Shown: one piece after another, positions 9,669 to 62,849 of the stretch
How the letters are laid out: every line of letters starts with the position of its first letter
Position numbering within the stretch: position 1 is the stretch's first letter
Assembly (NCBI GenBank): GCA_051294375.1
Contig: CM119268.1
Span: forward strand, 19,058,407 to 19,122,322
DNA: 63,916 bases
Origin: Paraspadella gotoi
Taxonomy: Eukaryota > Animalia > Chaetognatha
Reading direction: 5' to 3'
Made by a program: the position numbers and the translations under genes
Notes under the pieces: model-generated
Databases searched by the model: none
Told to the model about the DNA's origin: nothing
The model's input: the letters and a program-made list of their open reading frames with translations, nothing else

Positions 9669-9708
<40 letters not shown>

Positions 9709-14214: not shown

Positions 14215-14246
<32 letters not shown>

Positions 14247-14586: not shown

Positions 14587-14618
<32 letters not shown>

Positions 14619-25462: not shown

Positions 25463-25629
<167 letters not shown>

Positions 25630-26438
25630 GAGAGAGAGAAAGAGAGAGAGAGAAGAGGAGGCTAGAAGAAACAAAGGGTCCACGAAAAAAATATAAACTA
25701 TATTATGCTACATACATTTTACCAAAAACAAAAACCAAAAAATATTAACCTTATAAAAGTAATTACATAAAAAAGTTATAAAGTGAGAGATAGCGTTTGC
25801 CAAAAAAAATTGGATGGCGTAGACTGTTTTATTCGTTTATATAAAAAAATGTTGTAATGGCATTCGGTAATTGTTTTTTAGTTGTTTTTTTTTCACAACA
25901 TGGTCACCAATCCGACACAATCTTATACTGTCATACTGTCATACTGTCATACTGTTAACGCCGTTGTCGGTGTTTTTGTTTCTCGGCAGAAATTTGACGT
26001 CTTTTTTTGCGGAGAATTCGTGGCGGGAGAAGAGATATTCTTTAGTCCAAAAGAAAAAAATGAAATCAATTTACGGTTTATGGTTTGAATTAAAACGTAA
26101 TCTTCAAGAATATCCTTTTTAAATAAGTAAGATCAGTGAAACAAAAAAAATATGAGGGACGTGGTGCGAGGGATATCTATCACAGCGAGAGTAATAATAA
26201 GTAAAAAGTTAAACCCATCAAACCATTTGACCTTACTTGATATTTCGAATTTTCGAATACTTCGAATTTTTTAGACAATAAATGTAAGAGCGGACCCCTG
26301 TCGTTTTGTTTTTTTTTTGTATAGAAAAAGCCAAAGGTTCTATTTAAACAAACGAAATAACGTTGATTCCGTCTCTGACTTTGGGACGCAACAAAAAAAA
26401 TAAATAAATAAAAAAAAGAAAGAAAAAGAAAATAGCGC

Positions 26439-27341
26439 TCAGACGTTAGTGGCTCCGCTTCCTCTCCTCTGTCCGATGGACGGGCTGGCGCCGTTAGCGG
26501 ACCCACCGCCGCCGCCGCCGCCGCCGCTGTTGAAGAGATTGGCGAATAGGCTGACGGCCGCCGCCGCCGGCGATTTAGGCGACTTGGGAGACGGCGAAGG
26601 TGATGGCGAAGACGTCGAGGCGCCGCCCATCGGAGATGCCGCGACGCCGGAGGTCCCCCGCGACGGCGTCGTCGAGCGCGAAGAAGAAGAAGCGGCGCCG
26701 ACGCCGAAAGCAGCGCCCACGACGCCGGAGAGAGTCGTCGTCGGCTCGATCCGACGAGCGCCGCGACGCCGATCGTCGTCGTCGTCGTCGTCGTCTTTCG
26801 TTTCCCCGTCGGGTGATGCGGTGACGGTGTCGTTTTGTGACAGATGATGACAGGTTTGATGCTGCTGTTGCGTCGATGCTGCGGTCGCCGCCGATGTCGT
26901 CGTCGTCGTTGTTGTTCTTTTGTTAACCGAGGATGATGCTCTGTTGGCCGAACCGGAGGAGGAGGAGGAGGAAGAAGAGAAGGGGAGGATGTTGTGATGA
27001 GGGAAAGAGGAAGTGATGGAGGAAGAGGATGATGGAGTAGGGGAGGAGGAGGCGACGATGGAGACGGAACGAAGAGGCTCGACTTGGATCACGGTCGACG
27101 TCCGGTGATGCTTCACCGTCGTCGCCGTCGTCGTCGTCGTACCCATCGCCTCCGCCAGGTAAAATGGAACCGTGGGATAAAAGGTGCTGAAATAATTGTT
27201 TGGTCGTTGTTGCTGTTGTTGTTGTTGTTGTTGTTGTAGTAGTATTGGGTCGATGGTCGTCGAAGAGGCAACTCCCGTAAGAGTCGAGGGATGTTGAAGT
27301 ATTCCCCCCGACTCCGCCCCGCCCTCTCTCGAGCTTGGTTG
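26439..27341 (-). CDS. Candidate stop-codon-readthrough extension of CaMKII (300 aa, QPSSREGG...GQRRGSGATNV*)
   Basis: In frame with, and directly after, the CaMKII TGA (27344-27342). No stop until 26441-26439. Includes the 235-aa ORF of the track. Exon-like GC and trinucleotide composition. Confidence 0.6.
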   Translation of the reverse strand, partial: QPSSREGGAESGGILQHPSTLTGVASSTTIDPILLQQQQQQQQQQRPNNYFSTFYPTVPFYLAEAMGTTTTTATTVKHHRTSTVIQVEPLRSVSIVASSSPTPSSSSSITSSFPHHNILPFSSSSSSSSGSANRASSSVNKRTTTTTTTSAATAASTQQQHQTCHHLSQNDTVTASPDGETKDDDDDDDDRRRGARRIEPTTTLSGVVGAAFGVGAASSSSRSTTPSRGTSGVAASPMGGASTSSPSPSPSPKSPKSPAAAAVSLFANLFNSGGGGGGGGSANGASPSIGQRRGSGATNV

Positions 27342-27400
27342 TCACTTGGGGAGCATTGCAGTTCCCGATCGGTGAAAGTGGATGCATTGCCAGATCCCAT
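27342..27400 (-). CDS. CaMKII: CaMKII exon 10, end of hub domain: (D)GIWQCIHFHRSGTAMLPK*
   Basis: ctttttttccgcag| acceptor, phase 1. Matches the conserved DGKWQNVHFHRSG C-terminus. Confidence 0.93.
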
Positions 27401-27459
27401 CTGCGGAAAAAAAGAGCGGTGGATGGGAGGGGGGCAGGAAGTCGATTTAAATTCCTTAC

Positions 27460-27474
27460 TGATTCCAGTTCCAT
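27460..27474 (-). CDS. CaMKII: Candidate 15-nt CaMKII microexon (adds DGTGI in hub beta-turn)
   Basis: Strong pyrimidine tract + taccag| acceptor, ATGGAACTGGAATCA, then |GTAAGG donor. Phase 1-1 with a 59-nt downstream intron. Confidence 0.55.
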
Positions 27475-28220
27475 CTGGTAAAAACAAAGGAGAAAAGGAG
27501 AAAATAAGAGAAAGAGGCGGAGAGTCTTTTGAAAGGGGAAGATAATTGGGCGGAAAGATGAATGGAAAGATGAAAATATGATTAAAAGTGAGAAATTTTG
27601 AGATATATAAAAGGTATTTAGAGGAGACGAGTTGCGTAATATTACTTATTGATAAACATACGTAATCGTTATGGGAACGGATAATTTTAAAACAGAACCT
27701 CACGTGACGGAATTAACAAAACCGAGTGTTGATCAATCGGTCATTTAATTTGTCAGCTCGACAATTTGTCAATTCGTCAGTTCGCCAGTTCTTCAATTCT
27801 TCAAATTGACTGTTCATCAGTTCGGCAGTTCGTCAGTTCTTCAGTTCGCCAATCGGCCCTAAGCACATCTTGGTGACTTCTTTTTGCTAAATAAACAAAT
27901 TCCTTCTTTTTTCCACTCGAAATCAAAAAATTAAATTTTACCGAAATGAATATTTTATGAAAATGACTTTTTCCGCCTCCGCCTTCTGTTAAGTCGAATT
28001 GAATTTATCTCTTTCGTCTCTGGTTTTATCATCAAATTTTCATGAAGAGGAAAAATTTTTTTTTTCAATTTCATTGTTTATTTTTAATTGCTGTTTTGTT
28101 TCCTTTGTTTTCTGAAACAAATATTCAATGACATCCTCTGAAGTTTGCTTTATAGCTAACATCTTTCCTTTACTAAAAACCAAGTCCTTTTTTAAGGTAT
28201 TTTTAATTTTTTGTAAAAAT

Positions 28221-29404
28221 TTTGTATATGGTGACAATTTTACAAGCGCCGGTAAAAAAACGCTGTCATTTGCAAACCAGTGGTTATTTCATTGGTTTTA
28301 AAAATTAGTTGAGTAGAAAATATTAAAGTCATTTATATGTTCAAATTTTAAATTGATCAGTTAAGATATGCCTTGACAATGAGTGGAGAAAGTTGGCTTG
28401 TAAAATCGGGTTTCATTTTCCCACTCAATTTTTTTAGATTCAATTTTTTTTCTTACTTTCAGTAAGTTTTCTGAAGAAATTTGAAATAAAAAAAAATTAA
28501 TATTATTATCTTCTGAAAGCCCTTTCAAATCTAAAGAGAATGGCATACTTACAAATACTGTAGTATAAAATTTAACCGGCCCAGCTTTTATTTAATTAGG
28601 ATACTCAAAAACAAGATATCTTTCCAAAAATCAATAGCTGGAGGGTAAATTTAAGATTTTTATTTAGACAAAGTTTGAAAAATAATTTCATCAACGATTT
28701 TAATTATGTACGGACATGTTGTCTCTTTAATTTCGAGTCATCATCAGCGTTGAAGACTCGAAAATAAAGAGTTGAAACATGTCCGTACATAAATAAAATC
28801 GTTGATGAAATTATTTTTCAAACTTTGTCTAAATCTCTAAACTCAACGAAGCTGAAAGGATTAATACAATGTCTACAAAGATTTTTATTTTATTTTTATC
28901 AAATTGTGATTGGCTATCTTAAATCTCTTTTTTTCAGGCTCTTTCATGATACTTATCTAAATAATAATATTTTATGTTTTAAAAATTTAAACAGGTCATA
29001 TATTTTAAAAAAAGATTTAAAACTTTAGATAATTAACTTTTGACTCTTTTAATTTTTATGTTAGAGCTTTCGTAAGTATATCATTCTCTTCATTTTTTAA
29101 GGGCTTTCTGGGGATATTAATATTGTTAATACCTTAATAAATACTTTGTTTAAAAAAGTGCTAAAATTTGAAGAAAAAAAATTAAATTTAAAAACAGTGA
29201 GTTGGAAAATGAAACCCGATTTTACTAGCCAAATTTATCCACTCATTGTCAAGGCATATCTTAACTGATCAATATAAAATTTGAATACATAAATGACTTT
29301 AATATTTTCTCCTCAACTAATTTTTAAAATCAATGAAATAACCACTGGTTTGCAAATGACAGCGTTTTTTTACCGGCGCTTGTAAAATTGTCACCATCTA
29401 CAAA
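28221..29404. mobile_element. Foldback/MITE-like element with >200-bp inverted repeats in the last CaMKII intron
   Basis: 28221-~28430 is the reverse complement of ~29197-29404 (atggtgacaattttacaagcgccggtaaaaaaacgctgtcatttgcaaaccagtgg...). Confidence 0.85.
28662..28834. repeat. Second hammerhead-centred palindrome, nested in the foldback element
   Basis: Arms atttagacaaagtttgaaaaataatttcatcaacgatttta...cggacatgtt and aacatgtccg...aaactttgtctaaat. Core related to 15446-15634. Confidence 0.9.
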
Positions 29405-29771
29405 GTTTTCAAATGATTAGCTGAAAGTGGAAAATTTGGATTCGTCAAAGTTGTTTAAAAAATTCCTACATTAAGCAGTTAAAAAATGATAAAAACATAA
29501 TTTGAGCTTCAAGTCGAATTTTTGTATCATAAATTAGGTTCTTTTTTTAATGTTTAACCTACTTCATGAAAGAAGGAAAGTATTTTTTTATATATCTACC
29601 TTTGACAAGGTATTCAAATCTGCAATAATAACTAAAATTAAAAAGATAAAACTTCAAAATAGTTTTAAGGACATTACTTTATATTAATGCAAAAAAATTC
29701 AATATAAACATAAAATAGAGTTTATCTTTAAAGTAGCCACCTCCCTAACCCCATAACGACCCCCCATTTAC

Positions 29772-30090
29772 CTTTCCGCTGCCAGACTCGCGTTTCCTCC
29801 GTTCTGCTCGTCTGCGGACAGCCGGTCTTGTCGATGAACTGAACCAGCCTGACGTAGGCGATGCAGGCGGCGTCCTCGCCCAACAAGTGGACGTGGGGGT
29901 TAAGGATGGTGGTGTGAGTCGCTCTCAGCGACTTGAAAACCCCTGAGTCGAAGTAGAACTTGTGAAAGTCTATTCCCTCCACCAGGTTTCCCATGGCCTC
30001 TGGCTCGAAGCACGTCAAATCCGAACAGTTCATTTTCACGTAGGTATCAAAATCTCCGCTCGCGATCGCGTCCAGGAGGTTCTCGGTGAC
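29772..30090 (-). CDS. CaMKII: CaMKII exon 9, association (hub) domain
   Basis: [20 protein letters not shown]...[20 protein letters not shown]...[22 protein letters not shown]...EETRVWQRK. aaag| acceptor, G|GTAAAT donor. Confidence 0.97.
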
Positions 30091-30239
30091 CTTTTGGAGG
30101 GCGGGGAAGAGAGAGGAAGGGAGGGAAAAGGGGGAGAAAGGAACGGAGAAAACAAGGAACGGTTATTCCAAGGTGTTGCGCCGCATTACTTTTCTTTTTA
30201 CTTATCATGTCATTTATTCCTTATAATTTATAAGATTTC

Positions 30240-30435
30240 TTTAAAAAACAAAAAGCGGCGCCAGTAGTCGCTCAAATTTGATTTTTAACAAATGTGCAAC
30301 AAACTATAGGCAAGTTATAAGCATTTTTAACGTAAGTGGGACAGATCGACGGACAGATATACCGACCGACGGACCGACGGACCAAAAAGTGACTTTTAGA
30401 GTTGCTCCGCGAGTACTCGCGGCGCAACTAAAAAA
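30240..30435 (+). mobile_element. HINE-like short element (same 3' hairpin as 2055-2438)
   Basis: gacggaccgacggaccaaaaagtgacttttagagttgctccgcgagtactcgcggcgcaactaaaaa. A degenerate end also occurs at about 51255-51312. Confidence 0.6.
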
Positions 30436-30599
30436 GGGAGGATGGAGGGAGAATGGTTTTTAATTGGTGACGCAGCAATTGGGTTCGATAAGAAATCGAA
30501 GAGGGAGAAAAATTAGGAGCAGAGAGAGACGAGAACAGAGAGGAGAGAAAAAAGGGGAAGGATAGAGAGAAATAGAGGATAGGATAGAGCGAGCAAGTA

Positions 30600-32902
30600 T
30601 GTCATCCTTCAGAATCGCCTCCCCCGGGGTCGCTTCTAGGAACGGCCCCGCGGGGTGGCCCGCGGGACGGCCCCGGGGGGCAAGCAAATCCTTACTGCCT
30701 ATTTTTTTGGGCCCCAAGGGGCCACTCCAGGGGGAATCCCCCAGGGGCTAGAAAAACCTTTCCCCTGGGGGCTACCCCCAGGGGGATGAATTTGACTGCC
30801 CCCTGGAATGGCTCTCTCTCCCTCCTATTTCTCTCTCCCTCTCATCTCTCTCTCTCTCCCTCTCTCTCTCTTTCTCTATCTCTTCTCTTTTTCATCTTTA
30901 ATTAAAAATAAAATATAAAAATAAAAATAATATTTTTCACTTCAATTAATCAATCAATGAACCAATAGCTGCGCCAACACAATATGCATAATTTGGTCAA
31001 CTTTTAGAATTTGGTAAACTTTTAGAATTTGGTAAACTTTCATAATTTGGTAAACTTTCATAATTTGGTAACTTTCATAATTTGGTCAACTTTCATAATT
31101 TGGTCAACTTTAACAATTTGGTCAACTGGCATAATTTGATAATTTTTTTTATAATTTAGTCAACTTGCATAATTTGGTTAACCTTCATAATTTGGTAAAC
31201 TTTCATAATTTGGTCAACTTTCATAATTTGGTCAACTTTAACAATTTGGTCAACTGGCATAGTTTGGTCATTTTTTTAATAATTTAGTCAACTTGCATAA
31301 TTTGGTTAACCTTTATAATTTGGTAAACTTTCATAATTTGGTAAACTTTTATAATTTGGTAAACTGTCATAAATTTGGTCAACTGTCATAATTTGGTCAA
31401 CTGTCATAATTTGGTCAACTTGCATAATTTCGGCTCAACTTGCATAATTCGGGTCAACTTGCATAATTTGGTCAACTTTGCATACATTGGTCAACTTGCA
31501 TAATTGGCAACAACTTGGATAATTTGGTCAACTTGCATAATTTGGTCAACAATCAACTTAACAATTAGCTAATTATTAATTTCATCTGTAAGAAATAGAA
31601 AGAGAGAAAGAGTAAAAACAAATTTTTAATAAAATTCAAGTAAATGAAATTGTACAACAATATAAAAATTATCCATCATTTAATAAATAGAGCTATCTTG
31701 GCCCCTGACTTTGAACAGGCTTTGGTGGTTTAAGGCCTCCATCACTCTTACAAGATAATGACATAGCAGATCCCTGCAAGCTTTCAATCAAGACTCTTTC
31801 ACAGTCTCGTTTATTCACCTCCCAGAGTAACCTGGCTTCCCTATCAATGAAGTGGAAAATATTTCAAAGAATGTTTCAATTGTATGAAAAGACCACTCCT
31901 TTAAGTATTAGATCGGGGAATACTTATTGTACTCCGCACTAGCATCAAAATACAAGGAGCTGAATTTTATGAAATTGGTACAACCATATAAAAATTATCC
32001 ATTCATTTAATAAATAAGCTATCTTGCCCCTGACTTTGGACAGGCTTTTGTTTTTTCCATTAAAACTCACTTTCACTTGCACACTTTTCTATCCACAACA
32101 CAAAATTTTATCTTAATTCATCTATAAAATTTTAAAATAGTAGAAATAAAGTAGTAAGGATGGTTTTAATTAATTAATTAATTAACTAATTATTAATATT
32201 AGTCTTTAAGTCTGTCCCAAATTAGCATTAAACTCAAATTATTTGTGATTAGATATATGGATTGGAATGAAATCTTGTGTGTGGGTAGAAAAGTATGTGA
32301 TTGAGCTAGATATAAAGTTTTGCTCACTCTCTCTCTCGAACCATCAGCCTTTCCTCAACAACATGAGGCAATCTACAAACTGACAATTAATAATTACAAA
32401 TCTTAAATTAAAAAAATTTATTTTACGATGTATTACATAAAACAAGTCTTGAAAGATAGAGAGAGAGAAAGAGATAGAGAGAGAGAAAGAAAGAGAGAAA
32501 GAAAAAGAAAGAGAGAAAATGAAAAAGAGAGAAAAAGAAAGAGAGAGAGAGAGAGAGAGAAAGTGAGAGAGAAAGAGAAAGAGAGAAAGAGAGAGTAACA
32601 GACAGGGAGAGATATTCTCAGATACAATAACATTGTCAGAAAGTATATTTTCTTATCTAAACTTTGCTCTCTCCTTAACTCGTCCCTGGGGGAGCGCTTT
32701 TTTGCTCCCCAAGGGGTTACCCCCAGGGGCAGACTTTTTTTGCCCCTAGGGGGCCGCCCCGGGGGGGTTCCCCCTGGGGCAAACATTTTGGGTCTATTAG
32801 GGGCGCCCCCTCAATGACCATTTTGCTGCTCCCCCTGGAATAGTCTGCCTCCGGGGCCGCCCCTAAAGCCACCCCGCGGGGCAGAGGATTTGGGAGATGA
32901 CA
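30600..32902. mobile_element. Composite TIR element with GC-rich ends (TGTCATC...GATGACA, TA flanks) containing nested repeats
   Basis: Degenerate inverted termini with many CCCCNGGGG palindromes (30600-30810 and 32680-32902). Interior has the 18-bp minisatellite and family B fragments. Confidence 0.55.
30985..31550 (+). repeat. 18-bp minisatellite (ataatttggtcaactttc/tgc), ~30 units
   Basis: Tandem array of the same unit as 8210-8490 and, inverted, 62850-63295. Confidence 0.95.
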
Positions 32903-33069
32903 TATCTCAGAGCGAGAGTGAATTATGGTGAAGAGTGCGTTTGAGAGAAGATTGAGAAATGGCTTCTCGGAAAATAGAGGATTGATTGAGTCGTGGGGAA
33001 AGTAAAGAGGAAGAGGAAAAAGGAGAAATAAAAATATAGAAAATAAAAAAAGAGAAAAAATTAAAGTAA

Positions 33070-33133
33070 GAGAAAGAAAGAAAGAAAGAAAGATAGAAAG
33101 AAAGAAAGAAAGAAAGATAGAAAGAAAGATATA

Positions 33134-33208
<75 letters not shown>
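33070..33208. repeat. (GAAA)n microsatellite
   Basis: Tetranucleotide run. Others at 46330-46860 and 57310-57445; (GATA)n at about 35110-35180 and 57780-57866. Confidence 0.9.
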
Positions 33209-33396
33209 TCAGTCGTTCAATACTACAAGCGACAGATATTTGTGGACAAGGCATCCGTCCTTTTTGGCTCCGGGCTTTCGTGAGATTGCCTCCTTTGATT
33301 AGAATGGGAAACGGAAGAGACAGAATGAGAAAAAGTGAATGAGTGAGAGAGAAAGAAAGAGAAAAAGAGAGAGATTGATAGAGATAGAGAGAGATA

Positions 33397-33456
<60 letters not shown>

Positions 33457-35108
33457 TAGAGATATTGATATTAAAAATAGGAGTATAGCTTTAGGCCAGT
33501 TTTCCAAACTACCTCAAAAAGCTACTTTATCGAACATAGAATTTAACACGATCCTGTTACTTTAAACAATTAATTATACTTCAAAAATTATAAAATTATA
33601 AATTATAAATTATAAAAAATAATAAAATTGTTATAAAAAATTTAATCATAATGATATTTTTTAGAAACCTTTGTCTTCACAACAGTGCAGTGTAACCCTC
33701 CCTCAAAAAAAAGTACCTGTAATTGAATAATGAAAGAGTTGTCCCAAAAAGCATCTGCGAGACCCCAAAAATAACAGACAATTTCATCTTTAAGGGGTGA
33801 ACTTAGGTAATATTTTGCCTGATTAACTGAGCAAAGTGTTACTGAAATTTCTGAATCAAAATATTTTGCTTATATTTATTTTTAAAGATAAATAAAACAA
33901 TATATTTTCTTTTATTGTTTTAATTTCGTTATCAACTATATTTTCAATTTGTTATTAGTTATTACTATATTTTAAGCCCAAAAATGCTTTTCCCAGATGG
34001 CATGAAATATGAGTATCAGCATTAAGTACGTAAACTACTTGGCTACTACCAGAGCCAGAACCAATAAAATTATTAAAGAAGATTAATTCATTAATTCAAA
34101 AATGTTTTGTATCTTATTTAGAATGTCAAAGCTCATTAGAATTCTTTGCAGTATATTCAATACCTCCCTAGCTGATTATATTAAAAAATTCGAGCTCGAT
34201 ATAAAAAGAAATATCCTATGGATATGATTTTCAAATAAAAAAAATATAAAAAAATTCTCCTTCTATTTTTATATCATTAACAAAGATTTTAACTCAAAGT
34301 AAAAAATGACATTCTTGAACATACTGAAAAATGTTTATCTTAATTAAAAACAACTATACAATAGACTCCAACCCCTGTCACCAAACACCAAATACCAAAA
34401 ACCAAACATATTTTTAGCTATTAATTTTTTGTAATAAAATTATTTTATCTTTCTTTAAAAATATTTGGGCTAAAACTAATTGAATTTCAATGTTGAGCAA
34501 ATTAAAGATTTATGTTTGATAAAGATTTTGTTTAAAAATTAATACCGAAAAATATCCTATTTTGTTATTTTTTTAATTTTATATGAAAATTTGCAAAATT
34601 ACTTGTTTCACTATCTTATATTTTTATATTTTATAAATGTTTTACTATTTAAACTATATTATTTAATTATACATATATTACTTTTTGAAAATATTATTTG
34701 CTTATTATATCTAATAACTCATTTTGGGAGGGGGAGGTCAGTGTTGTCTTCTGGAAATAGAGGGAGCATCTATACAACACAAGGTTAGACTACAATAGAA
34801 TACAATTAGACTACAATATTTAATTTACTATCATTTGGCTTCAAATTATTAAAGATAACCTTTCCCTTTTAAATCTTAGCAAATTAGTTTATCAGTTATA
34901 CCTTAGTTTTAAAGATCCTTTCCTCAATTAAAAATTACCTACTTTTATTCAGTTAACTACTAGGTAAACCAAAAAATTGTCTATTACCTATTTAAGAAAA
35001 AATCTTTGCCTAAGTTCACCCTTTACTTCTAACTACTTTTTGTACTTCAATTTTACTTCAAGCTAAAGAGAGAAAGAAAGAAATAGAAAAAGAGATATAT
35101 AAAGAGAC

Positions 35109-35178
<70 letters not shown>

Positions 35179-35282
35179 GGATAGACAGATAGTTCAAAAA
35201 TAAAAAAAGAAGTACAATAAACGTCGTTAAAGGGAAGCAACGGACATTACCGACAGACAAAGGGAGCGACTGACCGACTCAC

Positions 35283-35413
35283 TTTAACTATTTCTTGCTT
35301 CCTTCCTTTGACATCGTCCTCCTCGATGGTGTTGGCCGAATCGTGCGACTCTTTGACTCCAGCCGATCCGTCCTTCTGAACCGTCGACTTCTGAGACGAA
35401 GACGGGGCCCGAG
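35283..35413 (-). CDS. CaMKII: CaMKII exon 8, linker and start of hub
   Basis: (A)RAPSSSQKSTVQKDGSAGVKESHDSANTIEEDDVKGRKQEIVK. cgcag| acceptor phase 1, AAA|GTGAGT donor. Confidence 0.93.
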
Positions 35414-35608
35414 CTGCGCGTGGGAAGAGGGGGGAGAGGGGGGCGGAATGGGAGAGGGTAGAGGGAGGAAAAAGAGAAGAGGATGGGGAGAGAAGGATAA
35501 TATAGAAAATAAAGGGGGTTAAAAGAAAGTAAAAGAGGAAGAAATAAAAAAAGAAAGGAAAAAAGAGGAGGGAGAATGAGAAGATAAAAAATGGGATGAC
35601 AGCGTCTG

Positions 35609-35685
<77 letters not shown>

Positions 35686-36584
35686 CCACCTGCCGTCAAG
35701 AATAAATTATAATCTTGGTTGCAAAATCGATTTTTCGTCTCCATCGACGATAATAAACATTGATACTAACTAATCAGAATTTTTTTTTTTTTTGTGAACC
35801 GGAGGTTAAGCCAAGGCCGAAATAAAGAGTGGAAATATGAGGAAGCCTCACCATCACGAGAACGATGTTTAATTTGTTCATTATTCAAGTTAATCAAAAT
35901 TCGGATATTTACAACCTCAGGCTCTTTATTCGTCGCTCTCTGTGACATTATATATGATAATATATTTATATTTGATACAATCGATTCTCGCTTTAGTGTG
36001 ATTCGGTTGTTCGTAATTCTGTAAGCGTGAGAAAAAGGCTGACCACTACTCATCGATTGGAAAGAGAGAGATAGAGTGCGAGACAGATAAAAAGAAGAAG
36101 AGAGAGATAGAGTGCAAGACAGATAAAAAGAAGAAGAAAGGGAAGAAGAAAAATAAAATTCAAAACTAATCTCATTAAAACCATTTTTTAATTGTTCGCA
36201 GTATTTTGAGGAAGTGATTATTTTGCCACTAAGCGAGAGATAAACAAGAGCGTAAAGTTGTGCTATAGAGAAACTTATGTTTTTTTTCTTTCTTTCTTTC
36301 AATTGATTATTAATTTATGTATCACGACGATAAAACCATCGTTAAAACAATGTTTCTAACATTTTCGAGTAATATTAAATTGTAGTATTTACCATTTAGT
36401 ACATTTATTCCAATAAAATTAGTTACTGGTTTCAATATCTCTGCAACAAAAAAAGTATATGGATTCAAGAAAATTTATTAAAATAAAGTTCTATTTTGGA
36501 CAATTATTAAAAGCTAAAACAATGACATTCTGGCGATGTGTCCAGAATTTCAGGAAGTGTGTGATAGAAAGAGAGAGAGAGAAA

Positions 36585-36654
<70 letters not shown>

Positions 36655-39600
36655 GAGAGAGAGAGAGAGAGATTCAAAGTAAAAGGAAAGCAAGAGAAAA
36701 GAAGTGAAAGCGAGATTAAGGGCGACATTCGTTGACCCACGACGTTCGCTATATTTTTAGAAAAGAAAGACGACGACGACGACGACGATGACGACGATGA
36801 CGTAGTTTCCGGAATTCCTTTTTTCTTCTCTCCATCCTCGCTTCTTTCTTTTTTTTTTTTTTTTTTTGACCTTCAGGCACATTCTCATCCCATCCACTCC
36901 CAACTAATTACTCCCCTGTGACCAGAACACTTTTCATTCGCCCCCAACTGTCGCCTTCCGCTTTCTTTCGTCGTTTCTGGAATCGAAGGACAGTTTTTTT
37001 TCTTTCCCAGCCTTAGTTGTCCTTATTTTCTCAAAACGACCCATTTGATTTTAAATTTGGAATTTACTTTTTAAGTTTCAGCATGAGGTAATTGGTTAAA
37101 CATTAGGTTGGGGATTATGATTTGGATAAGAGTTAATGGGAAGAGTGTAAAGATAATGATTAAGATTTAGGGTCAGGGTTAATGTGAGGGTGACGGTTAG
37201 ATATTTATGGATTAAGAAACTTTCGTGATAATCCTTTCGTTTGTTATTTGAAATAGATTAGAGGAAAAAATAAATTTTTTCGAGATTTAACAACAACAAA
37301 AAAAAATTAATGTTGTTAAATCACGAAAAACTTTCGTTTTTCCTCTAAGGATTAAGAAACGAAATTGGGCGCTTATGTAAAAGAGAGCCCATAGTTATCA
37401 TTTGTCCATCCAAATTTCCCACTCTCTTCATTCCGTCTTTAAAACAGCCTCTGCTCCAAAGAATGAAAGGGTATCGCATCTCTCTGTTTCCGCCACCGAC
37501 TTTCCTATCGAGATCGGAGGTCAAGATGCAAATGAAGGAATCCGACTATCAGGTTGGGAGGAAAAAAAGAAGGAAAAAAGGAAAAGAAAGAAGGAAAGAA
37601 AAGAATTAAAAAGTGGAGGAAAAGAAAAGAGAAAATGGAAAATAAAGGAGAAAAGAAAAGAACGAGAAAAACCAAAGGTGACAGATGAGAGAATAAAAAA
37701 TAAAAAGAAGAAAGCTAAAACAAGAGAGAAAAAGTTGAGCCTTTGACCACTGCCTCCATAAAAGTCAACCCAAATCTATTCTCTTCGCCTTCTCATGCGA
37801 TTGTTTTGAGAGACAAAGTATTTTTTAACCAACCAAAGCAGAATAAGAGCACCTAGCTTCCCCCTACAATTTATTCCCTCGCTGACGCCTCAGAAATGAC
37901 CGATTGTAAGAGCCGCCCTTTAAATTTTCCGAATTCCTCCCGGGCCCCGCCAATCTCGATCGTCCCTTTGGAGTAAAAACTTTGTTTGAAAAACGTGTTA
38001 ACCTTAAGACCATAATTTTTTTTTCGCTCTCTGAAGTTACGTGACCCTTTTTTTCGGAAACACGAAGATTATACAGTATCGGTNNNNNNNNNNCCGATAC
38101 TGTATCTGTTTTACTTTCGATGCCAGGATTCGGCGCCAAATTCGTTGCAGGGGTCAACCTCCTTCTTCTGGCTTCATTGTTAGCGATGCACGTGTGCGAG
38201 AGAAAGTTTCATGGCGTTTGTGCGTATGCTTGTGTTAGGAGAATCTTTTTTGACCCTCAGTCAATCACCATGCGGCTCTATCGTCTATGGAATTTCTTTA
38301 AAATATTCAAACCTTTCTTTATTGGTAAAATTACCAAAATGAATAATTAAACAATCGTTTTGACTAAAACTGAAATGAATATAGTTTGGACATTGACTTT
38401 CTTCTGAAAAGAATAAGCTTTTGAAGTTAATACAGCAAAAAATTTATAATATTTCCGACAAGGTTACATTATTTATTTACCTGTATAATGAGTACTCATA
38501 ATTAGGTATTTTGAAATATACGTTAAAAATCCATAAAACTTGTATATAAATAGCAAGAGAAAGCATAAACTAGTTAATTTGTTTAGGAAGCATTAGATTA
38601 CAAATTTTTTGGCTTTGGTTAAAGGTAAATATGGTTATGTTAATACTGTTCAATTTTACAGACTCGGTACAATAAATCCGGACTAAAATTTGTTTTTCTG
38701 TTTTGTAATTTACGTCAGATATAAATTATTTATTCATGTTGACGTTCATAAAATTACACTGCGGTAACGATGGTACTTGGAATTGAATGCGGATTTAAAT
38801 CAATATATCTGTTTTCGTACAAACCTCATAAGGGAAGCTTCTCAAAGTAAATTTTTTTTATGCCTAAAAAAAGTAAATTCACAAATCAAGCGACAATCAA
38901 TTAACGCGAATTAAATTAATAAACACTTTTTGAAACGCTCTGGTCTGTTTTATATCTTGTAGAAAAAAAAGTTTTCAAAAAAGACGTGATTTCACATCAC
39001 TACGAAAAAAAATTATGAAAAAATTAATGCTGTACTTTCTGAGGGAACTTTTTGTTATGTGTCACACTTAACAACATACAATTAAAAATAGATCTTCAAT
39101 CATAAAAGATTAGTTAAACATAAAAATATAGTTAGAAAATAGATTAAAATTAAAAAATTTTGATGGTAATTACCAGCATTTTAGTGATAATATCACTAAA
39201 AGTATAACACTAATAAAAAGTCACACTATGAATATTCCTTAAACTTGATTAAAATATTTCAAAACTATTCACCTGGATGCTAAAATTAAACAGTTTTAAA
39301 ATTAAAATTCAGTCTGGATTTATGGTTCTGATCCTGTAATTAATAGAAGGCGATTTAATATTTGTACGTTTAAATGCGAAATACAGAATATGATTAATAA
39401 ACTCATAAAAGTGCACAGTGGAATCACCGACACTGGCTTTAACTAGCAAACAAATCATAAACAATATCTAAAGGACTTGGATATTTATTGCTTAATTGTG
39501 CGAATTTGTTGTTGTCAATTTTTTTGACTTGCAATAGTGCCTTTGACAGCATTCAAGACAATCCTTGCAGTTGACTATCTATTCAATTTTAAATTTTATT

Positions 39601-40000
39601 AAAGAGAAAGAGAGAGAGAGAGAGAGAGAGATAAAGAGAGAAGAAAAACATTTGATCGCCTTTTGTTTTTATAAATTTTATAAACGAAACTTATCATTTT
39701 TGTCAAGAAAAACATTTTTTTTCCACCATCACGATAGTTTATGCATGCAGGACGGAACCAGTATATCATGTTTACCGACGAAAATAGAGGAAATGTGAAT
39801 ACAGATTAAAAAAAACCTAAATAAATTAATAAAAACCCTCCATAGGATAAAAAAAAGCCCTCGACTTCTCTTTGAGAATGAGTGTCAGTTAAAAGATTAT
39901 ATAAAGAAATGGGATCACATGCTCACTCACGGGCTTCGACTGAACCGGAACTGTCCTTCTTTTCAAGGGTACTCTCTCTTTTCTCTTTAGAGGCTGGGAG

Positions 40001-40068
<68 letters not shown>

Positions 40069-40588
40069 GGCGGCAGCGTTGGAAGGCCGTTGATCAAGAA
40101 GGGGGAGCAATACAGAAATTGTTTCCGGTTTAGAAACTACAAAATTTATTTGTCCGATCGGCCGTCATTATTTAATCTTTTTTACTTAAAGAAAATAAAA
40201 TCTTTAAATAAAAGTATGTAGAGTTCGTAAACAAACCAGAAGGGGACATTTACAAGTAACGATGAACAGATTCGCTTAACTACAGGGCGTATCAAAATTT
40301 CAAAACTACTTCATGAGAACCCTTATTCTTGCGCAGTAACATTTAAATAATTTTAGGATGATATTTTACCCATAGTCGGCAGTGACGACAATAAGATATT
40401 TTTACGTTTTCTATTTTACTTATTAGTTAAAGCGAATGAGAACCCTTAACAATTGTCGATACACCATGTACTAATAATCGGGACAAGAAGGCCAAACAAG
40501 AAAAAACAAAAATCAGGTTTTGACATGAGGCAAGGAGGGAAAAAAAATCTAAACAAGGAAGGTAGTTAAAAAATAGAAAAACAAACTA

Positions 40589-40873
<285 letters not shown>

Positions 40874-41434
40874 TTATTTTTAAAATCTAATTGTAAATTA
40901 TAAATTGTACATATAATACATTGAATGATAACGTAAAAGTTTTTCCGTACTTATTGTTGTGAACTTTCATTTCATTTCGTTGAAAAAAACTATTAGCAGT
41001 TTCATATTGCCCCTAATATTAAGTCAACCCCTCTTGGACAATGATCAAACCAAATTTTTTTTTAAATACGTTTTTAACCTTAAATATAAATATTTTAAAG
41101 AACAAAAAAAAGTAACAAAACCATAAAAAACAAAAAACAAAATGAAATAAAAAAAATAACGGAAACAACGCCACCACGAAAGATCATGTAACCATCTAAC
41201 AACTAATAATCTAATAATCAATTATTTTTTTTATTACTTATAAGTCCCATGAGCATATCTCTAATCCCGGCCCCCCAATTTTAGTCAAGTGGGTCCCAAT
41301 GTCCCACGTTGTTATTATTATTATCACATTTTTGCTACGTTACACCTTTTAAACTAGAGCTATTAACTATTGTTGATAATTCCTTTTATAAACGACTCAA
41401 ATAAATTATCCAGCCCCCCTATTCTCGCCCAAAC

Positions 41435-41562
41435 CTGTCGATGCATGACGGAGGCGACTCTCTCGCGCTGGCAGATCCAGGGATGCTTCAAGGCATCACC
41501 GGCGGTGATTCGCTTTTTCGGGTCGAGACAGAGCATCGAGTCTATCAGCGCCTTGACACTAT
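41435..41562 (-). CDS. CaMKII: CaMKII exon 6
   Basis: (D)[42 protein letters not shown]. Splice phases consistent. Confidence 0.96.
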
Positions 41563-44500
41563 CTGTCATCGTCCAATTCGTTTCGTTTTTTGGTTTTATT
41601 ATTGTTTTTTGTTTTGGTTTTTTTTTTTAGTTCGGAGGTTGAAACGATGAGGGCGAGGAACGGTCCGTAGTTTCAACGTTGTTTGGTGGGAGGGAGGGAG
41701 AGAGATAGAGACAGAGAGAAAAAGAGAAAGAAAAAAAAAAAGAATGAAAGAAAGAGAGAAAGATATAAAGAGAGAAAGAGAGAGAGAGAGGATTGGGAAA
41801 TTTTTTGGAAACAATGGAAAAAAAACAAAGGGAGAGGGGAAGAAAAAAGAAAAAAAAATTAAGAAAAATAATTTGTATTCCTACGTATGACCCGCTGACT
41901 GAGTATTTGGTGCTAAACCCGATTTATATACATAATTATCAATATCTTCCCTTTAAACAAAGCAGGCTACTTTTCCAAATCTTGGTAATTCCGAGACAAT
42001 AACAGTATTAAATACATAAAAAGTATTAAATTTGTTTCATTAAAACCCGCCCCTTTTTCGTTGGCTTTCTTGGTCAGACTTTTCGAAAATGTTTTTCACG
42101 TGAACGGTTTTCTTTCTTTTTATTCACCAGGAATAAGGTTTTTATAATTCAAAGTTCCTTTACAAACGAAAAATAATTGGATGAAATCACAAAATCTTCA
42201 CCATGTGTGAAATATTCACGATAGCAAATCACAAAGACTCCAGTTTTTTCAAAAAGATAATCACAATAACAAATCACGACAATTTTTTCCCTCTTTTTCC
42301 TTATCTTCCCTTAAGACGAAATTCATGCAAATTCTAATTATAAATTGAAATCTATTTTCCACACATTCTGCCCACCCTTTTTAAAAGACCTAAAAAACGA
42401 TCAAGCTATGAGTTATTCAACCGGCCGCTCGGTCGATAAGGGCTAATGCTCAATTTTACGAATACAGACTGAATATTACTTAAATAATTTTTTTACGACT
42501 AACATTACTTTGAGCCCTGATTTACCTGACAGTGAACCAGTGAGATAATACATTTTATTTATTAACATAATTATTTTTTTTAATCTAATAGTCAAAATTA
42601 TAAACAACTCTTTTTTCATTATTAGGATTATATAATTTCTTCATAAAGGTGTTCAAATATTTGATTATTCCACTCTTATTTTAATTTTATTCTTTTATAA
42701 TGCTATAATTTTGGCTACGGCAGAATGTAACTTGAAACCATAGCTAGATCGTTTTTTGATGTTACAGAAGAGCAGCGACGATCAGTTATCCAAATTGTCG
42801 ACACTTTGTTTCCTAAGACTAATTTAAACGTTTCCATCCGTTGGGGACGAAATATGGGCTTGATTTTTATTATAAAACACCGTTTGTGAAAATAATATAA
42901 ACTGCTCCACGATATTTATATTATGAAACATCGAAAATAAAAAAATGACTTTCAGGAATGGAATTAGCTTTATAACTTATAAAAAAAAGCGCCACGCCAC
43001 GACTTGTCTATATGACGATGAAATAACGACACAAGTGGGGTTCTGATAAAACTTTCTTTTTATAGATATTGAATACCCCTTGAAGTAATGTTAATCTATT
43101 CGTTCATTAAGCCGAATACTTGTTTGCTCTTGTTTACCAGATAAAACAAAGTCTATTATGAAAGTTTAAAAAATATATATATAAATATAATAGATACCGT
43201 ATATATATGCGAGGTTGCAAGAAAAGCTTCTATTCTTAATATTCATGAGGATAGGATTAAACGAAATAATATCAATATTGTAAACGAAAAAAAATCTAAA
43301 TGAAATCTAATCTCTTTATATTCTGCGCTTACTACTTTTCTTATCTCTTTCAAGATAAGTTAAGTCGTCAAAATTTTTTATGGTGATTTGAGTGAAAAAA
43401 ATATTCGACGACTTAACTAGTGATTTATCTACATATTCTATGTATTATTGTACGACACACTGGTCAAAAATCCATTGTACGTCTTTGCATACTACGTCTA
43501 AAAAGCAATATATCTGTTAGTATTACGTATCTTTTTTTGTTTTTAAAAGACTCCTTTAGATTTAAAAAAAAAATTAAATATCTTTTATAACTACCAAGTT
43601 CGTGAGAAGATGACGTAAATTCTTTTTAAAGAATCGCAGCTAGGAAAGATATTTCTTTTTTTATTTTTTTATTTATTTATTTTGTTAAAAAAATTGTAAA
43701 ATAGGTATTGGTTATTTCTGCCCTTTTCAGCTACAAACAGGCTTGTCTTCCCAATCTCTGTGGCAAACATTAAAGTGACTATATTTACACATATATGTGC
43801 TTGAATGCTTCTTGATGAATCATTTCTTCTAATTATGAAAATATATCTAGATATAACTTTCATTTAATTTTTTTTTAGTCTTTGTATTTGAGTTTCCCTC
43901 AAAAACTTGGTTTTTATAAAAGAATCATAAAGAATAAAGTCCTAAACCATGCTCATCAATAAATACTTAACAACTGCTTTAATAATAAAGCGATATAGAA
44001 TTCGTCACTTCTCCGCTAGATACGCAAAGACAAATAAAAAAAAAATTATATCCGTCTAATAATTCCAGAAGGATGTTCAAGAAATCTATGCAAGTTGAGT
44101 GAAAAAAATCATTTCAAACAGTTAGTGTCCTTTTTATTTTAAAATACGAATTTTATTATTTGTTAGTCAAAGGTAAAAAAATAATTTAGTGAAAGCTTAT
44201 GAGAAAGCAAACAAAGCACTCTGTTAAGTCGTCATTGAAATATAATAGAGAAAGAAGTTTATCGTTTTTTAATACCCTTAAATTTATGACCATTTTTGGA
44301 AGTTTAAAGATGGCACAAGGATAACCAGAAATAAGGATTGTTTTTTTTTTTCATACCTGCATAGTCCTGACTCCCTTTGGATCCTTTGGTCAAACAAAAG
44401 TAATGGTTTTGTGAAAAAGTATGAAAGTGCAGTTGCATCAGCTGCTTTATAAGATAACGTATTTTAGACCTAAGTTAGATTCCTTTTAATCTGTATCTCA

Positions 44501-44935
44501 TGTGATATTTAAATAGGAAATCATCATTTTCCTAATTAAAATCTAACTTTTTTTTTAATATACCTGTCCTAATTAGAGTCCAAAAGCTAGGAGTTTAAAA
44601 CAGAAAAGAAAGTGTTACGGTACATTGAGCATCTGTTTAAATGAAAGAAAAAGAATCATACAATAATGTGCCGGCAAATGTGTGGGAAATTCCGTTAGTT
44701 TTTTCTCATGTTCCAATAAAAAAAAATAAAAAAAAGTATTAGATATCTACACAGGATTAAATTAAAAAGTCAGGCGTTATGTGCTCGTATTAACAAAAAA
44801 AATGATAATAACTCCCTTCGGAGATACGCACGAGTGGCGGGCCAAAACTCATTAAGCCATCGATCGGCCCTGCGTGTTTTCGAACAGTTAAAGAGCCATG
44901 CGCGAGAAAACCCCTTTCTATCACCGAAAACTAAC

Positions 44936-45034
44936 CTGTCACTGTATCCCATTCGGGAGATGGGTAGTCGTAAGATCCGCTTTTGATCTGAGCGTATAGT
45001 CTGTGTTGATCTTCGTCCCAGAATGGGGGGTAAC
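44936..45034 (-). CDS. CaMKII: CaMKII exon 5 (not in ORF track)
   Basis: (G)[32 protein letters not shown]. ttaag| acceptor, G|GTTAGT donor. Confidence 0.96.
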
Positions 45035-45222
45035 CTTAAAGGATATGAAAAAAAGTAATAATCGAATATGAGAATTTTTACCCCCCAAAAAATACTAGTT
45101 TATATCCTTCGAAAAATTTCTTTTTTCGTTATTTTGATTCTTATGAATTCATGTCATATTAGAAATAAACCAAAAATACAATTTGTCCTTCTGCTCCCCG
45201 CTCCTTTTCAGCCTTCGCTTAC

Positions 45223-45409
45223 CGACTAAGAGAATGTAGAGTATAACACCGCAAGCCCAGATGTCAACGGGCTTTCCGTAGGGCTCCTTCTTAAGGACCT
45301 CGGGCGCCAGGTATCCCGGCGTTCCGGCGAAACCGAACCACGCCATTTGGTCGCCCGTCACTTCGATTGCAAGTCCAAAATCCGCCAACTTCACAGCTGC
45401 CCCCTTGGC
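45223..45409 (-). CDS. CaMKII: CaMKII exon 4
   Basis: [17 protein letters not shown]...[37 protein letters not shown]. Confidence 0.97.
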
Positions 45410-45991
45410 CTGGAAAAAAATGGGGAACGGGGTGTGCACTGTGCAGAGTTGAACGTTAATTTCTTTTTAATTCGTCTCCCGTTTCTCTGTGTAAAAAACT
45501 GTAATCCTTACCTCGCCTTTTCAATGACCTTCTAGATTTCAGTATTCTCCTTTTATCGACGTCGTTCTCTTTCTATCTTTACTCGCCATTCTTATATTTC
45601 TACATCAAAATAAGTGTACATATAAAAAGGTAAACTCTGGCTGTCGTAATTCACGTAAGTTACGGTGAAATATGACAAAATTAGGGTTATTGAAATTTCG
45701 ATTACTGACAATACTTACAATACTGCCAAAAAATATTTGTCAAGTTATAGAAAAAAAAAAACCAGAATGGATAAAGGTCATGAATAATACACATTTAGTT
45801 TCAGAAATTTCCTCGGCCTTATTTTCCCAGAACGACCCCATTTCATCTTAAATTTAGAATTAATATTAATTTTTAGGTTTAGGTTTTTGAGGTTAAGGTT
45901 ATAAATTTGATTAGGAATAGAATAAATTGAGTAATTAGGGTTAGGGAATAGGAAATGGTCAAGCCTCTAACTCCCACCCCCTACTCCAAAC

Positions 45992-46186
45992 CTTGCTGGC
46001 TAGCAATAGATTCTCCGGCTTGAGATCCCGGTGCACCACGTTATTAGCATGACAGTGAGCGACAGACTCGAGGATCTGTTGGATGCAGTGGGAGGCGTCG
46101 GCCTCGGAGTAGAACTCCCGGGCGACGATGTCCTCGAAGAGTTCTCCGCCCGTGACCAGGTCGAACACGAGGTAGTGGTAGCCCTC
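45992..46186 (-). CDS. CaMKII: CaMKII exon 3
   Basis: [65 protein letters not shown]. Confidence 0.97.
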
Positions 46187-46704
46187 CTGAGGAAAGGGTC
46201 GAGGGTGGGGGTTCGTGTATGTGAAGGTCATGGGTAAAGTCCGTAGTAGAAACTATTTCTATATTTGAATAGTGTCATTTTTTAAAGAATATAGTATTTT
46301 AGTAACGGCAACAGCCTTGAAAGGAGATAGATAAAGAAAGTGAGAAAAAGAAAGAAATAAAGAGAGAAAGAGAAAAAAAAAGAGAAAGAGAAATAAAAGA
46401 GAGAAAGAGAAAAAAAGGGAGGAAAAAATATAGGGAAAGAGAGAAAGAAAGAGCGAAAGAAAGAGAGAATGAAAGAGAAAGAAAGAGAGAAAAAAGTAAG
46501 AAAGAAAGAAAGAAAGAAAGAAAGAAAAAGTAAGAAAGAAAGAAAGAAAAAAAGAAAGAAAGAAATAAAGAAAGAGAGAAATAGTGAAAAAAAGAGAGAA
46601 AAAAATATAGGGAAAGAGAGAAAGAAAGAGAGAAAGAAATAGAGAATGAAAGAGAAAGAAAGAGAGAAAGAAAGAAAGAGAGAAAGAAAGAGAGAAAGAA
46701 AGAG

Positions 46705-46739
<35 letters not shown>

Positions 46740-47241
46740 GAGAAAGAAATAAAGAAAGAGAGAAAGAAATAAAGAAAGACAGAAAGCAATAAAGAAAGAA
46801 AGAGAGAAAGAAAGAGAGATAGAGAGAAAGAAAGAGAGAAAGAAGAGAAAGAGAGAGAGAGAGAGCGGTTTTTAACTTTGGCAAACAAAAAGTCAATCAT
46901 TCTTCATGAATCTTCTCTGTATTCGACTTTCGCCTTTCATCGGCTTCTGAATCGTTCCTTGAATTTTCGGTATAAAACAATAAATTTCTTTTAGAATCAC
47001 GAAAACAAAATAGCGATCGATGGTCACTAGGGCGAAGCTGATAGTTGTATATAATATGAATTGAAATATATATTCTTTAAAACTTATCTTTTAAATAAAA
47101 TATACATTTTGAAAATTGCCTTCGATCGTCACTTTTGATTCGGTCTGGACTAATTCCAAGCTATCACTTCTTAGGCCCGATAACTTTTTTAATATTTCAC
47201 AGTAGCTAAAAGCTGAGTTAAACTTTTTATTTTTTCTTCTA

Positions 47242-47778
<537 letters not shown>

Positions 47779-47901
47779 TTAACTTGATCGACTTTACTTC
47801 TCTTGCCTCCACAATCACTTGACTAACCATAACCATCATCCAAAAATGCCTTTCGTTTGAAGTTGAACTCACCCGACCCGAACTTTCTCCCTACAACTCA
47901 C

Positions 47902-47959
47902 CCAGTTCTTCCTTGAGCTCGTACTCCTCGGAAAATCGTGTGGACGTAGGTTGTGCCAT
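47902..47959 (-). CDS. CaMKII: CaMKII exon 1 (start): MAQPTSTRFSEEYELKEEL(G)
   Basis: ATG at 47959. Matches the CaMKII TRFTDEYQLFEELG motif. G|GTGAGT donor. Confidence 0.95.

Positions 47960-62812: not shown

Positions 62813-62849
<37 letters not shown>

What the first reader, a model, noticed from the sequence alone, without database searches (positions are those of the whole stretch)
26439..27344. Candidate programmed stop-codon readthrough giving CaMKII a ~300-aa disordered tail ending in a PDZ ligand
Seen in sequence: CaMKII ends ...HFHRSGTAMLPK-TGA (27344-27342). The same frame then stays open for 300 codons (QPSSREGGAESGG...polyQ...polyT/S/D/G...SLFANLFNS...GQRRGSGATNV) to a TGA at 26441-26439, while the other two minus frames close at 27113 and 26923. 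The segment has the GC-rich, trinucleotide-repeat composition of this genome's real exons and turns abruptly AT-rich just after the second stop. The stop context is TGA-CAA-CCA. Established knowledge: UGA-C is the leakiest stop context, CARYYA is the tobamovirus-type readthrough enhancer, and metazoan readthrough extensions are often low-complexity and neuronal. T-x-V-COOH is a class I PDZ-binding motif, and RRGS fits PKA and CaMKII (RxxS) consensus. Inference: a fraction of subunits in each CaMKII holoenzyme could carry a long flexible tether that anchors it to PDZ scaffolds. I know of no described CaMKII isoform of this type.
Basis: partly seen in the sequence, partly recalled or inferred. 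Interest (0 to 1): 0.9.

Follow-up and report, generated by a model that had tools for sequence, protein, structure and literature searches.

The report
Leaky stop gives CaMKII long tail
In this invertebrate the stop codon of the signalling kinase CaMKII is followed by 300 more in-frame codons that are present in the RNA and whose first part is conserved as protein code in a distant relative, so ribosomes likely read through the stop some of the time and add a long, predicted floppy tail.

Summary
CaMKII ends at TGA 27344-27342 (context TGA-CAA-CCA) and the frame stays open for 300 codons. Length alone is weak evidence (200 of 5000 shuffles). A spliced RNA contig crosses the stop unchanged and unspliced. 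A relative (L006) whose synonymous sites are largely scrambled (70 of 163 four-fold sites identical) keeps TGA-CAA-CCA. It also keeps an in-frame tail with a coding pattern: 29 of 49 residues identical, 17 by synonymous change, and gaps in threes. Both share a 7-bp hairpin with two compensatory changes. A new nonsense change, base-call error, reinitiation, opposite-strand coding and selenocysteine were rejected. A minor 159-nt splice that removes the stop remains possible. Only 51 codons of one relative could be compared, so the distal tail, second stop and T-N-V 'PDZ ligand' are untested, and no protein was seen. Verdict: likely functional UGA readthrough (about 0.8), a known mechanism but one I found no report of for CaMKII. 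Earlier scan notes hold no such CaMKII case.

The parts
27342..47959 (-). CaMKII gene, 11 exons: 47959-47902, 47553-47368, 46186-45992, 45409-45223, 45034-44936, 44383-44357, 41562-41435, 40726-40627, 35413-35283, 30090-29772, 27400-27342. 495 aa after allowing for one extra base near 47503.
   Evidence: GT-AG introns, frame; Pfam CaMKII_AD, E 1e-38; relative P0253 against the solved CaMKII-alpha holoenzyme, E 2.5e-239
27342..27344 (-). First stop, TGA, at the ancestral end of CaMKII
   Evidence: unchanged in RNA contig 3 of run X1; TGA in L006; all 9 listed cluster members that include the last exon end at the matching Lys
27336..27341 (-). CAA-CCA (CARYYA-type) context directly after the stop
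   Evidence: identical in L006, inside a 13-nt identical stretch around the stop; 2 of 2091 TGA triplets in the window have it
27280..27315 (-). Predicted hairpin: 11 bp in the window, 7-bp core (27311-27284) with a 14-nt loop shared with L006. Possible readthrough stimulator, though farther from the stop than usual.
   Evidence: found independently by folding each species; 7 of 7 pairs hold in both, 2 changed on both sides; same register in 12 of 3000 synonymous recodings; whole-region folding z-scores not significant (-0.29, -0.16)
27137..27341 (-). Proximal tail with protein-coding conservation: GG.E.GG, HP, GVASS, and the aromatic motif NY[FY]STFYPT[VI]P (27197-27165). The polyQ at 27236-27207 is absent from L006.
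26442..27341 (-). 300-codon in-frame extension, rich in S/T/G/A/P/Q, predicted disordered
   Evidence: codons 52-300 favour this frame in a codon model trained on other ORFs of the window; pLDDT 42; no Pfam family
26442..26468 (-). RRGS site and C-terminal T-N-V, which fits the class I PDZ-ligand pattern (pattern recalled). Seen in one species only.
   Evidence: conservation not testable because L006 ends earlier
26439..26441 (-). Second stop TGA, followed by AT-rich 3' UTR
   Evidence: X1 contig 1 spans it colinearly, but its letters lie in a repeat stretch the tool skipped
27187..27345 (-). Possible cryptic 159-nt intron (weak donor overlapping the stop, acceptor inside a conserved Ser codon) that would remove the stop in frame. 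This is the main rival.
   Evidence: sites; no such joint listed in X1; L006 unspliced; coding pattern inside it
25828..25833 (-). First AATAAA after the first stop, about 600 nt past the second stop
   Evidence: X1 contig 1 runs to the end of the laid stretch at 25760

Best explanation
The CaMKII mRNA keeps a conserved UGA-CAA-CCA stop followed by an in-frame, protein-conserved extension, so a minority of ribosomes likely insert an amino acid at the UGA and make an about 796-aa subunit with a predicted disordered 300-aa tail after the hub. Shown: the stop is real and ancestral; the main RNA is unspliced and unedited across it; the first 50 codons evolve as protein in this frame; no ATG precedes the conserved motifs. 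Inferred: a near-cognate tRNA decodes the UGA (Trp, Cys or Arg, recalled), driven by CARYYA and perhaps helped by the hairpin. Because CaMKII assembles through the hub into 12-mers, long subunits would mix with short ones. At 15% readthrough (the value reported for UGA-CARYYA in a mammalian reporter, PMC4132726, not measured here) 86% of 12-mers would carry at least one tail, 1.8 on average; at 2%, 22% would. The tail most likely works as a tether or localisation arm. Its conserved aromatic motif near the hub is the best candidate binding site, and the C-terminal T-N-V is a possible but untested PDZ ligand (about 0.35).
For: RNA: X1 contig 3 joins 29772 to 27400 (GT-AG) and runs 27400-27251 across the stop with 0 other letters and 0 gaps; contigs 2 and 1 cover 27198-26806 and 26762-25760. 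Relative L006: 381 of 388 residues identical over seven exons but only 70 of 163 four-fold sites; 13 nt around the stop identical; in the tail, 29 of 49 aligned residues identical, 17 by synonymous change, differences by codon position 15/13/30, gaps all multiples of 3. Protein score 87 against a maximum of 54 in 2000 shuffles. With the same 58 differences placed without regard to codon position, 0 of 826,070 replicates reached 29 identities (mean 16.6). Third-position excess p 1e-4. The first in-frame ATG is codon 66 and L006 has none in 153 nt. The opposite-strand frame that shares third positions has 4 stops there. No SECIS found. CARYYA gives about 15% readthrough after UGA in a reporter (PMC4132726, passages).
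Against: No ribosome, peptide or reporter data. Only 1 of the 23 loci belongs to this lineage, and it ends after 51 codons, so 250 codons and the second stop rest on one genome. The other 22 CaMKII loci have TAA (20) or TGA-A (2) with second frames of 0-40 codons, so the trait is lineage-limited. No single contig spans both stops; breaks fall at repeats. Contigs drop rare forms, so a minor splice or edit is not excluded. The alignment used was made on the proteins, which favours identity, although a DNA alignment gave nearly the same blocks. Codons 1-51 do not favour this frame in the single-genome codon model (-8.1 against -12.4 and +6.3), and an internal repeat-mismatch test was uninformative. 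The hairpin starts 27-30 nt after the stop, beyond the 8-12 nt spacers of known stimulators (PMC3159437), and all three frames of L006 are open over its 153 nt.
Confidence: 0.8

Rival explanations
1. A minor splice form removes a 159-nt intron (27345-27187; about 100 nt in L006) that holds the stop and joins the hub in frame to the rest of the tail. The conserved letters at the stop would then be a splice donor, not a readthrough signal.
For: Both species have AA|GTGACA at the stop and a YAG in the right phase inside a conserved AGC codon. This gene uses one purine-rich acceptor (41562) and one donor without G at -1 (35283). Contigs lose rare forms.
Against: No such joint among the 9 joints listed for this stretch; X1 contigs 3 and 2 and L006 are unspliced at both sites. 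The putative intron itself evolves as protein: 17 of 31 residues identical, 10 synonymous, third-position excess p 0.01, gaps in threes. The donor lacks both G at -1 and G at +5.
Confidence: 0.1
2. A-to-I editing of the UGA to UGI (read as Trp) opens the frame in a fraction of transcripts.
For: Would give the same coding signature; a folded RNA is predicted around the stop (z -2.8).
Against: X1 contig 3 and L006 both read TGA. The stop is unpaired in the window's fold. Editing would not explain the CARYYA match.
Confidence: 0.03
3. The region is a GC-rich 3' UTR with a conserved RNA element, or the relic of a once-translated tail, and is not translated now.
For: An open frame of this composition arises in 4% of shuffles; a hairpin is conserved; searches found no protein like the tail.
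Against: Position-blind conservation never reproduced the amino-acid identity. Four-fold sites in the tail are scrambled (5 of 19 identical) while residues are kept. The stop position is ancestral. GC falls exactly at the second stop.
Confidence: 0.04
4. The tail is made as a separate peptide by reinitiation or internal initiation (dicistronic mRNA).
For: An in-frame ATG in a good context at 27146 would give 235 codons.
Against: All conserved motifs lie upstream of that ATG, L006 has no ATG in its 153 nt, and no near-cognate start codon is shared.
Confidence: 0.03

Closest known systems
Functional readthrough genes of Drosophila and Anopheles (Jungreis et al. 2016, PMC5100048; 2026 atlas, PMC13278127), such as CASK, synapsin, kelch and headcase
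   Same: UGA-C stop, conserved in-frame coding signature, GC-rich disordered extension, conserved RNA structure within about 75 nt of the stop (passages).
   Different: CaMKII is absent from the 2016 candidate file and from the stored, cut part of the 2026 tables. The CASK extension is 27-31 codons against 300 here. This lineage fell outside the pancrustacean clade in my trees, though not firmly.
Tobamovirus-type UAG-CAR-YYA readthrough
   Same: Exact CARYYA hexamer after the stop in both species.
   Different: The stop is UGA, not UAG, and the gene is cellular. A reporter shows CARYYA works about equally with UGA (PMC4132726).
Structure-stimulated UGA readthrough (alphaviruses, kelch; Firth et al. 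2011, PMC3159437)
   Same: A stem 3' of a UGA with compensatory changes.
   Different: No CUA or CGG; the spacer is 27-30 nt rather than 8-12; the loop is short; the evidence rests on two sequences.
Mammalian MAPK10 readthrough (PMC4132726)
   Same: A protein kinase extended by UGA readthrough.
   Different: 13 residues and a CUAG motif there; 300 residues, CARYYA and a 12-mer enzyme here.
CaMKII isoform diversity (linker splice variants; the short alternative C-terminal tail of CaMKII-delta, recalled)
   Same: Kinase, regulatory segment, variable linker and hub; optional linker exon present.
   Different: Variation here is translational and lies after the hub, with a tail about as long as the kinase domain.

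Membership tests
Functional stop-codon readthrough genes (criteria of Jungreis et al. 2016) | Protein-coding conservation in frame between the first and second stop | tested here: met
   First 49 aligned codons in two species; distal 250 codons supported only by single-genome codon bias; PhyloCSF not run
Functional stop-codon readthrough genes (criteria of Jungreis et al. 2016) | First stop is old, not a recent nonsense change or sequencing error | tested here: met
   TGA in X1 RNA and in L006; 9 of 9 listed cluster members with the last exon end at the same Lys
Functional stop-codon readthrough genes (criteria of Jungreis et al. 2016) | Not explained by alternative splicing | tested here: inconclusive
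   Main RNA forms are unspliced and the candidate intron is itself coding-like, but contigs cannot exclude a minor splice
Functional stop-codon readthrough genes (criteria of Jungreis et al. 2016) | Not explained by a downstream ATG or by opposite-strand coding | tested here: met
Functional stop-codon readthrough genes (criteria of Jungreis et al. 2016) | Ribosome footprints or peptides beyond the stop | not testable with these tools
   only assembled contigs were served
Selenoprotein (UGA = Sec) | SECIS element in the 3' UTR | tested here: not met
   No SECIS family in Rfam over 23000-28000 at E up to 5; 0 loose cores; SECISearch not run
Tobamovirus-type signal | CARYYA directly 3' of the stop | tested here: met
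   window and L006
Tobamovirus-type signal | UAG stop | tested here: not met
   UGA in both species; works like this signal but is not a strict member
Structure-stimulated UGA readthrough | UGA-CUA or UGA-CGG with a stem 8-12 nt downstream | tested here: not met
   UGA-CAA; shared stem starts 27-30 nt downstream
CaMKII | Kinase domain, regulatory segment and C-terminal hub domain | tested here: met
Class I PDZ ligand | S/T-x-V at the free C-terminus (pattern recalled) | tested here: met
   T-N-V before the second stop; one species only
Class I PDZ ligand | Conservation of the motif and binding to a PDZ domain | not testable with these tools
   L006 ends after 51 codons; tail searches empty

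The most novel reading that the evidence does not exclude
A non-arthropod animal lineage has independently evolved insect-like programmed readthrough and uses it to hang one or two 300-residue tethers on each CaMKII holoenzyme, anchoring the kinase to PDZ scaffolds or condensates at a level set by termination efficiency. CaMKII would be the first of many such genes in that lineage.
Probability: 0.2. Interest if true: 0.85.

Novelty: new member of a known kind. Interest (0 to 1): 0.64.

Why it matters
CaMKII's known variety comes from splicing of the linker (recalled). A readthrough tail after the hub would be a different lever: it would set, at translation, how many subunits of a 12-mer carry a long arm, without touching the kinase. 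It also bears on a standing claim that abundant functional readthrough is limited to Pancrustacea (PMC5100048, section read). This lineage grouped apart from insects and crustaceans in my trees, so a three-frame test on its transcriptomes would test that claim directly. One gene does not show abundance, and the three other long ORFs of the window whose ends I checked show no such context.

Tried and rejected
Base-call error, majority editing and majority splicing at the stop: rejected. Recent nonsense change: rejected. Reinitiation, opposite strand and selenocysteine: rejected. Open-frame length as evidence: too weak. The neighbouring-triplet mismatch test did not separate the tail from an intron. 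Tail homologue searches found nothing: phmmer against 1.84 billion representatives gave 0 hits at E 0.001; the last 155 residues gave 0 of 2794 candidates at E 10; no Pfam family; no usable Atlas hit; the exact sequence is not in the collection. These blanks say little, since gene callers stop at the TGA. Runs X2 and X3 matched the hub exon but laid nothing on the stop region of the window or of L006, which is no proof of absence. The run search listed no holder on record as RNA; X1 is shown to hold spliced RNA only by its joint. No whole genome was held, so a genome-wide three-frame test was impossible. Taxon: not established. The relatives form their own clade (100/99); grouping them with pancrustaceans gave p-AU 0.021 in one test and 0.077 in another that included L023. 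My guess of arrow worms is recall only; no call supports it, and searches on that guess found nothing on readthrough. Literature: 'stop codon readthrough'+'CaMKII' gave 13 papers, 'CaMKII'+'readthrough'+'hub domain' 1, 'readthrough'+'PDZ-binding motif'+'C-terminal extension' 0; some searches were off topic. By listing and abstract start, none describes natural CaMKII readthrough.

Full report
Observation. The minus strand carries an 11-exon CaMKII gene from 47959 to 27342 (hub domain by Pfam). The last exon ends ...HFHRSGTAMLPK at TGA 27344-27342, followed by CAA CCA and 300 sense codons to TGA 26441-26439. GC is 61% in the extension and 31% in the next 300 nt. The short form is 495 aa with the 27-nt exon 44383-44357, or 486 without it, once one extra base near 47503 is allowed for. 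The open frame is by itself modest: 200 of 5000 dinucleotide shuffles keep it open, and another minus frame is open for 302 codons. The context is rarer: 2 of 2091 TGA triplets in the window are followed by CARYYA.

RNA. One listed run holds the stretch (X1). Its contig 3 joins 29772 to 27400 across a GT-AG intron, so it is spliced RNA, and runs on to 27251 across the stop with no other letter and no gap. Contigs 2 and 1 cover 27198-26806 and 26762-25760, the latter colinear across a skipped repeat stretch that holds the second stop. None of the 9 joints listed uses the weak donor at the stop. The TGA is therefore real, and the main RNA is neither spliced nor edited there. No single contig spans both stops, and contigs lose rare forms.

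Relatives. A search with the hub exon found a cluster of 16 unnamed proteins whose representative is 93% identical there. Of 15 listed, 9 include the last exon and all 9 end at the matching Lys, 8 at the same distance from HFHRSG and 1 a residue longer; the other 6 lack that exon. The stop is thus ancestral. A DNA pattern for the last exon gave 23 loci. One, L006, is a spliced transcript of this lineage. The other 22 are more distant CaMKIIs with TAA (20) or TGA-A (2) and second frames of 0-40 codons. L006 shares 381 of 388 residues with the window over seven exons but only 70 of 163 four-fold sites, so unselected sequence should be largely scrambled. Yet 13 nt around the stop, including TGA CAA CCA, are identical, and the frame is open for the 51 codons to the contig end.

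Coding signature. In the tail, 29 of 49 aligned residues are identical, 17 by synonymous change. Differences fall 15/13/30 on codon positions, four-fold sites are 5 of 19 identical, and all gaps are multiples of three. The protein score is 87 against a maximum of 54 in 2000 shuffles. Spreading the same 58 differences without regard to codon position never gave 29 identities in 826,070 replicates. That alignment was made on the proteins, which favours identity, but a DNA alignment gave nearly the same blocks, and aligning in frame 2 still put most differences on the third positions of frame 0. The best block is NY[FY]STFYPT[VI]P. For codons 52-300 there is only single-genome evidence: a codon model trained on other ORFs of the window favours this frame (+21 and +16 bits against -24 to -80). 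The same model does not favour it for codons 1-51.

Signals. CARYYA stimulates readthrough and gave about 15% after UGA in a mammalian reporter (PMC4132726, passages). Folding each species alone gave a hairpin at the same place: 7 pairs and a 14-nt loop, all pairs kept, two changed on both sides (two sequences, and that call's shuffle control is uninformative at 130 of 500). The shared register arose in 12 of 3000 synonymous recodings. It starts 27-30 nt after the stop, farther than the 8-12 nt of known stimulators (PMC3159437, passages), so its role is open.

Rivals. I applied the exclusion list of Jungreis et al. 2016 (PMC5100048, passages). Recent nonsense change and sequencing error fail as above. 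Reinitiation fails because the first in-frame ATG is codon 66, after the conserved motifs, and L006 has none. The opposite-strand frame that shares third positions has four stops there. No SECIS was found. Splicing is the serious rival: both species have the weak donor and an in-phase YAG that would remove 159 nt with the stop. Against it, that stretch is itself coding-like (17 of 31 identical, 10 synonymous, p 0.01) and is retained in X1 and L006.

Mechanism. Most ribosomes likely stop and make the standard subunit; a minority likely insert a residue at the UGA and make an about 796-aa form whose tail is predicted disordered (pLDDT 42, single sequence). A relative's protein aligns over its whole length to solved CaMKII holoenzyme chains, so long and short subunits would share a hub. 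By arithmetic, 15% readthrough gives 1.8 tails per 12-mer and 2% gives a tail on 22% of them. I commit to a tether or localisation role. The proximal aromatic motif has evidence of selection. The terminal T-N-V fits the PDZ pattern (recalled) but was seen in one species and is easily met by chance.

What is known. Readthrough with UGA-C, GC-rich disordered extensions and nearby RNA structure is common in flies (PMC13278127, passages) and was judged abundant only in Pancrustacea (PMC5100048, one section read in full). CaMKII is not in the 2016 candidate file (one supplement file not searched) nor in the stored part of the 2026 tables (file cut, so it may be listed in the unseen part). The supplements held for PMC3840789 were too small to tell. 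Searches showed, by listing and abstract start, no natural CaMKII readthrough; most subscription journals are not covered. The lineage forms its own clade apart from insects, crustaceans, hemichordates, brachiopods and vertebrates (19 of 38 rows kept in the last two, most partial rows dropped), but exclusion from Pancrustacea is only moderately supported (p-AU 0.021 and 0.077). Earlier scan notes hold readthrough cases in phages and fungi, none for CaMKII or this genome; none changed my reading.

Verdict. Likely functional UGA readthrough (0.8): a new member of a known kind, notable for its host protein, its length and its probable position outside insects. The PDZ-anchor function is untested. 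Interest 0.64.

Noticed in passing
window near 47503 (exon 47553-47368, minus): One extra base shifts the frame in the kinase domain compared with P0121 and L006.
   Followed up: partly
window 27474-27460 (minus): A 15-nt candidate micro-exon with a good acceptor and donor, 59 nt before the last exon, would add five residues in the last hub loop. It is skipped in X1 contig 3 and L006.
   Followed up: partly
window 44383-44357 (minus): A 27-nt optional exon inserts nine residues inside the kinase C-lobe. It is present in most relatives, absent in P0251 and in the named CaMKIIs aligned.
   Followed up: partly
window about 39993-39930 (minus): Optional linker exon matching the longer isoforms of relatives.
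   Followed up: partly
P0122 and its cluster: A 9-member cluster of short proteins with a CaMKII hub, no kinase domain and an unrelated N-terminal stretch; it branches next to this lineage in the quick tree. It resembles a kinase-less anchoring form.
   Followed up: no
window 9448-11298 and 13168-14643 (plus): Long GC-rich ORFs for low-complexity proteins with no Pfam family; their ends show no CARYYA context.
   Followed up: partly
window 59898-63887 (minus): SRCR-domain gene with a long Thr-rich, mucin-like stretch.
   Followed up: no
window about 28190-29410 and 30168-30300: Intron stretches with very many divergent X1 contigs (summed depth in the thousands): abundant repeats present in the run.
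   Followed up: no
L006 1-790 from the 5' end of the transcript: A long 5' leader of about 790 nt with several upstream ATGs before the CaMKII start.
   Followed up: no
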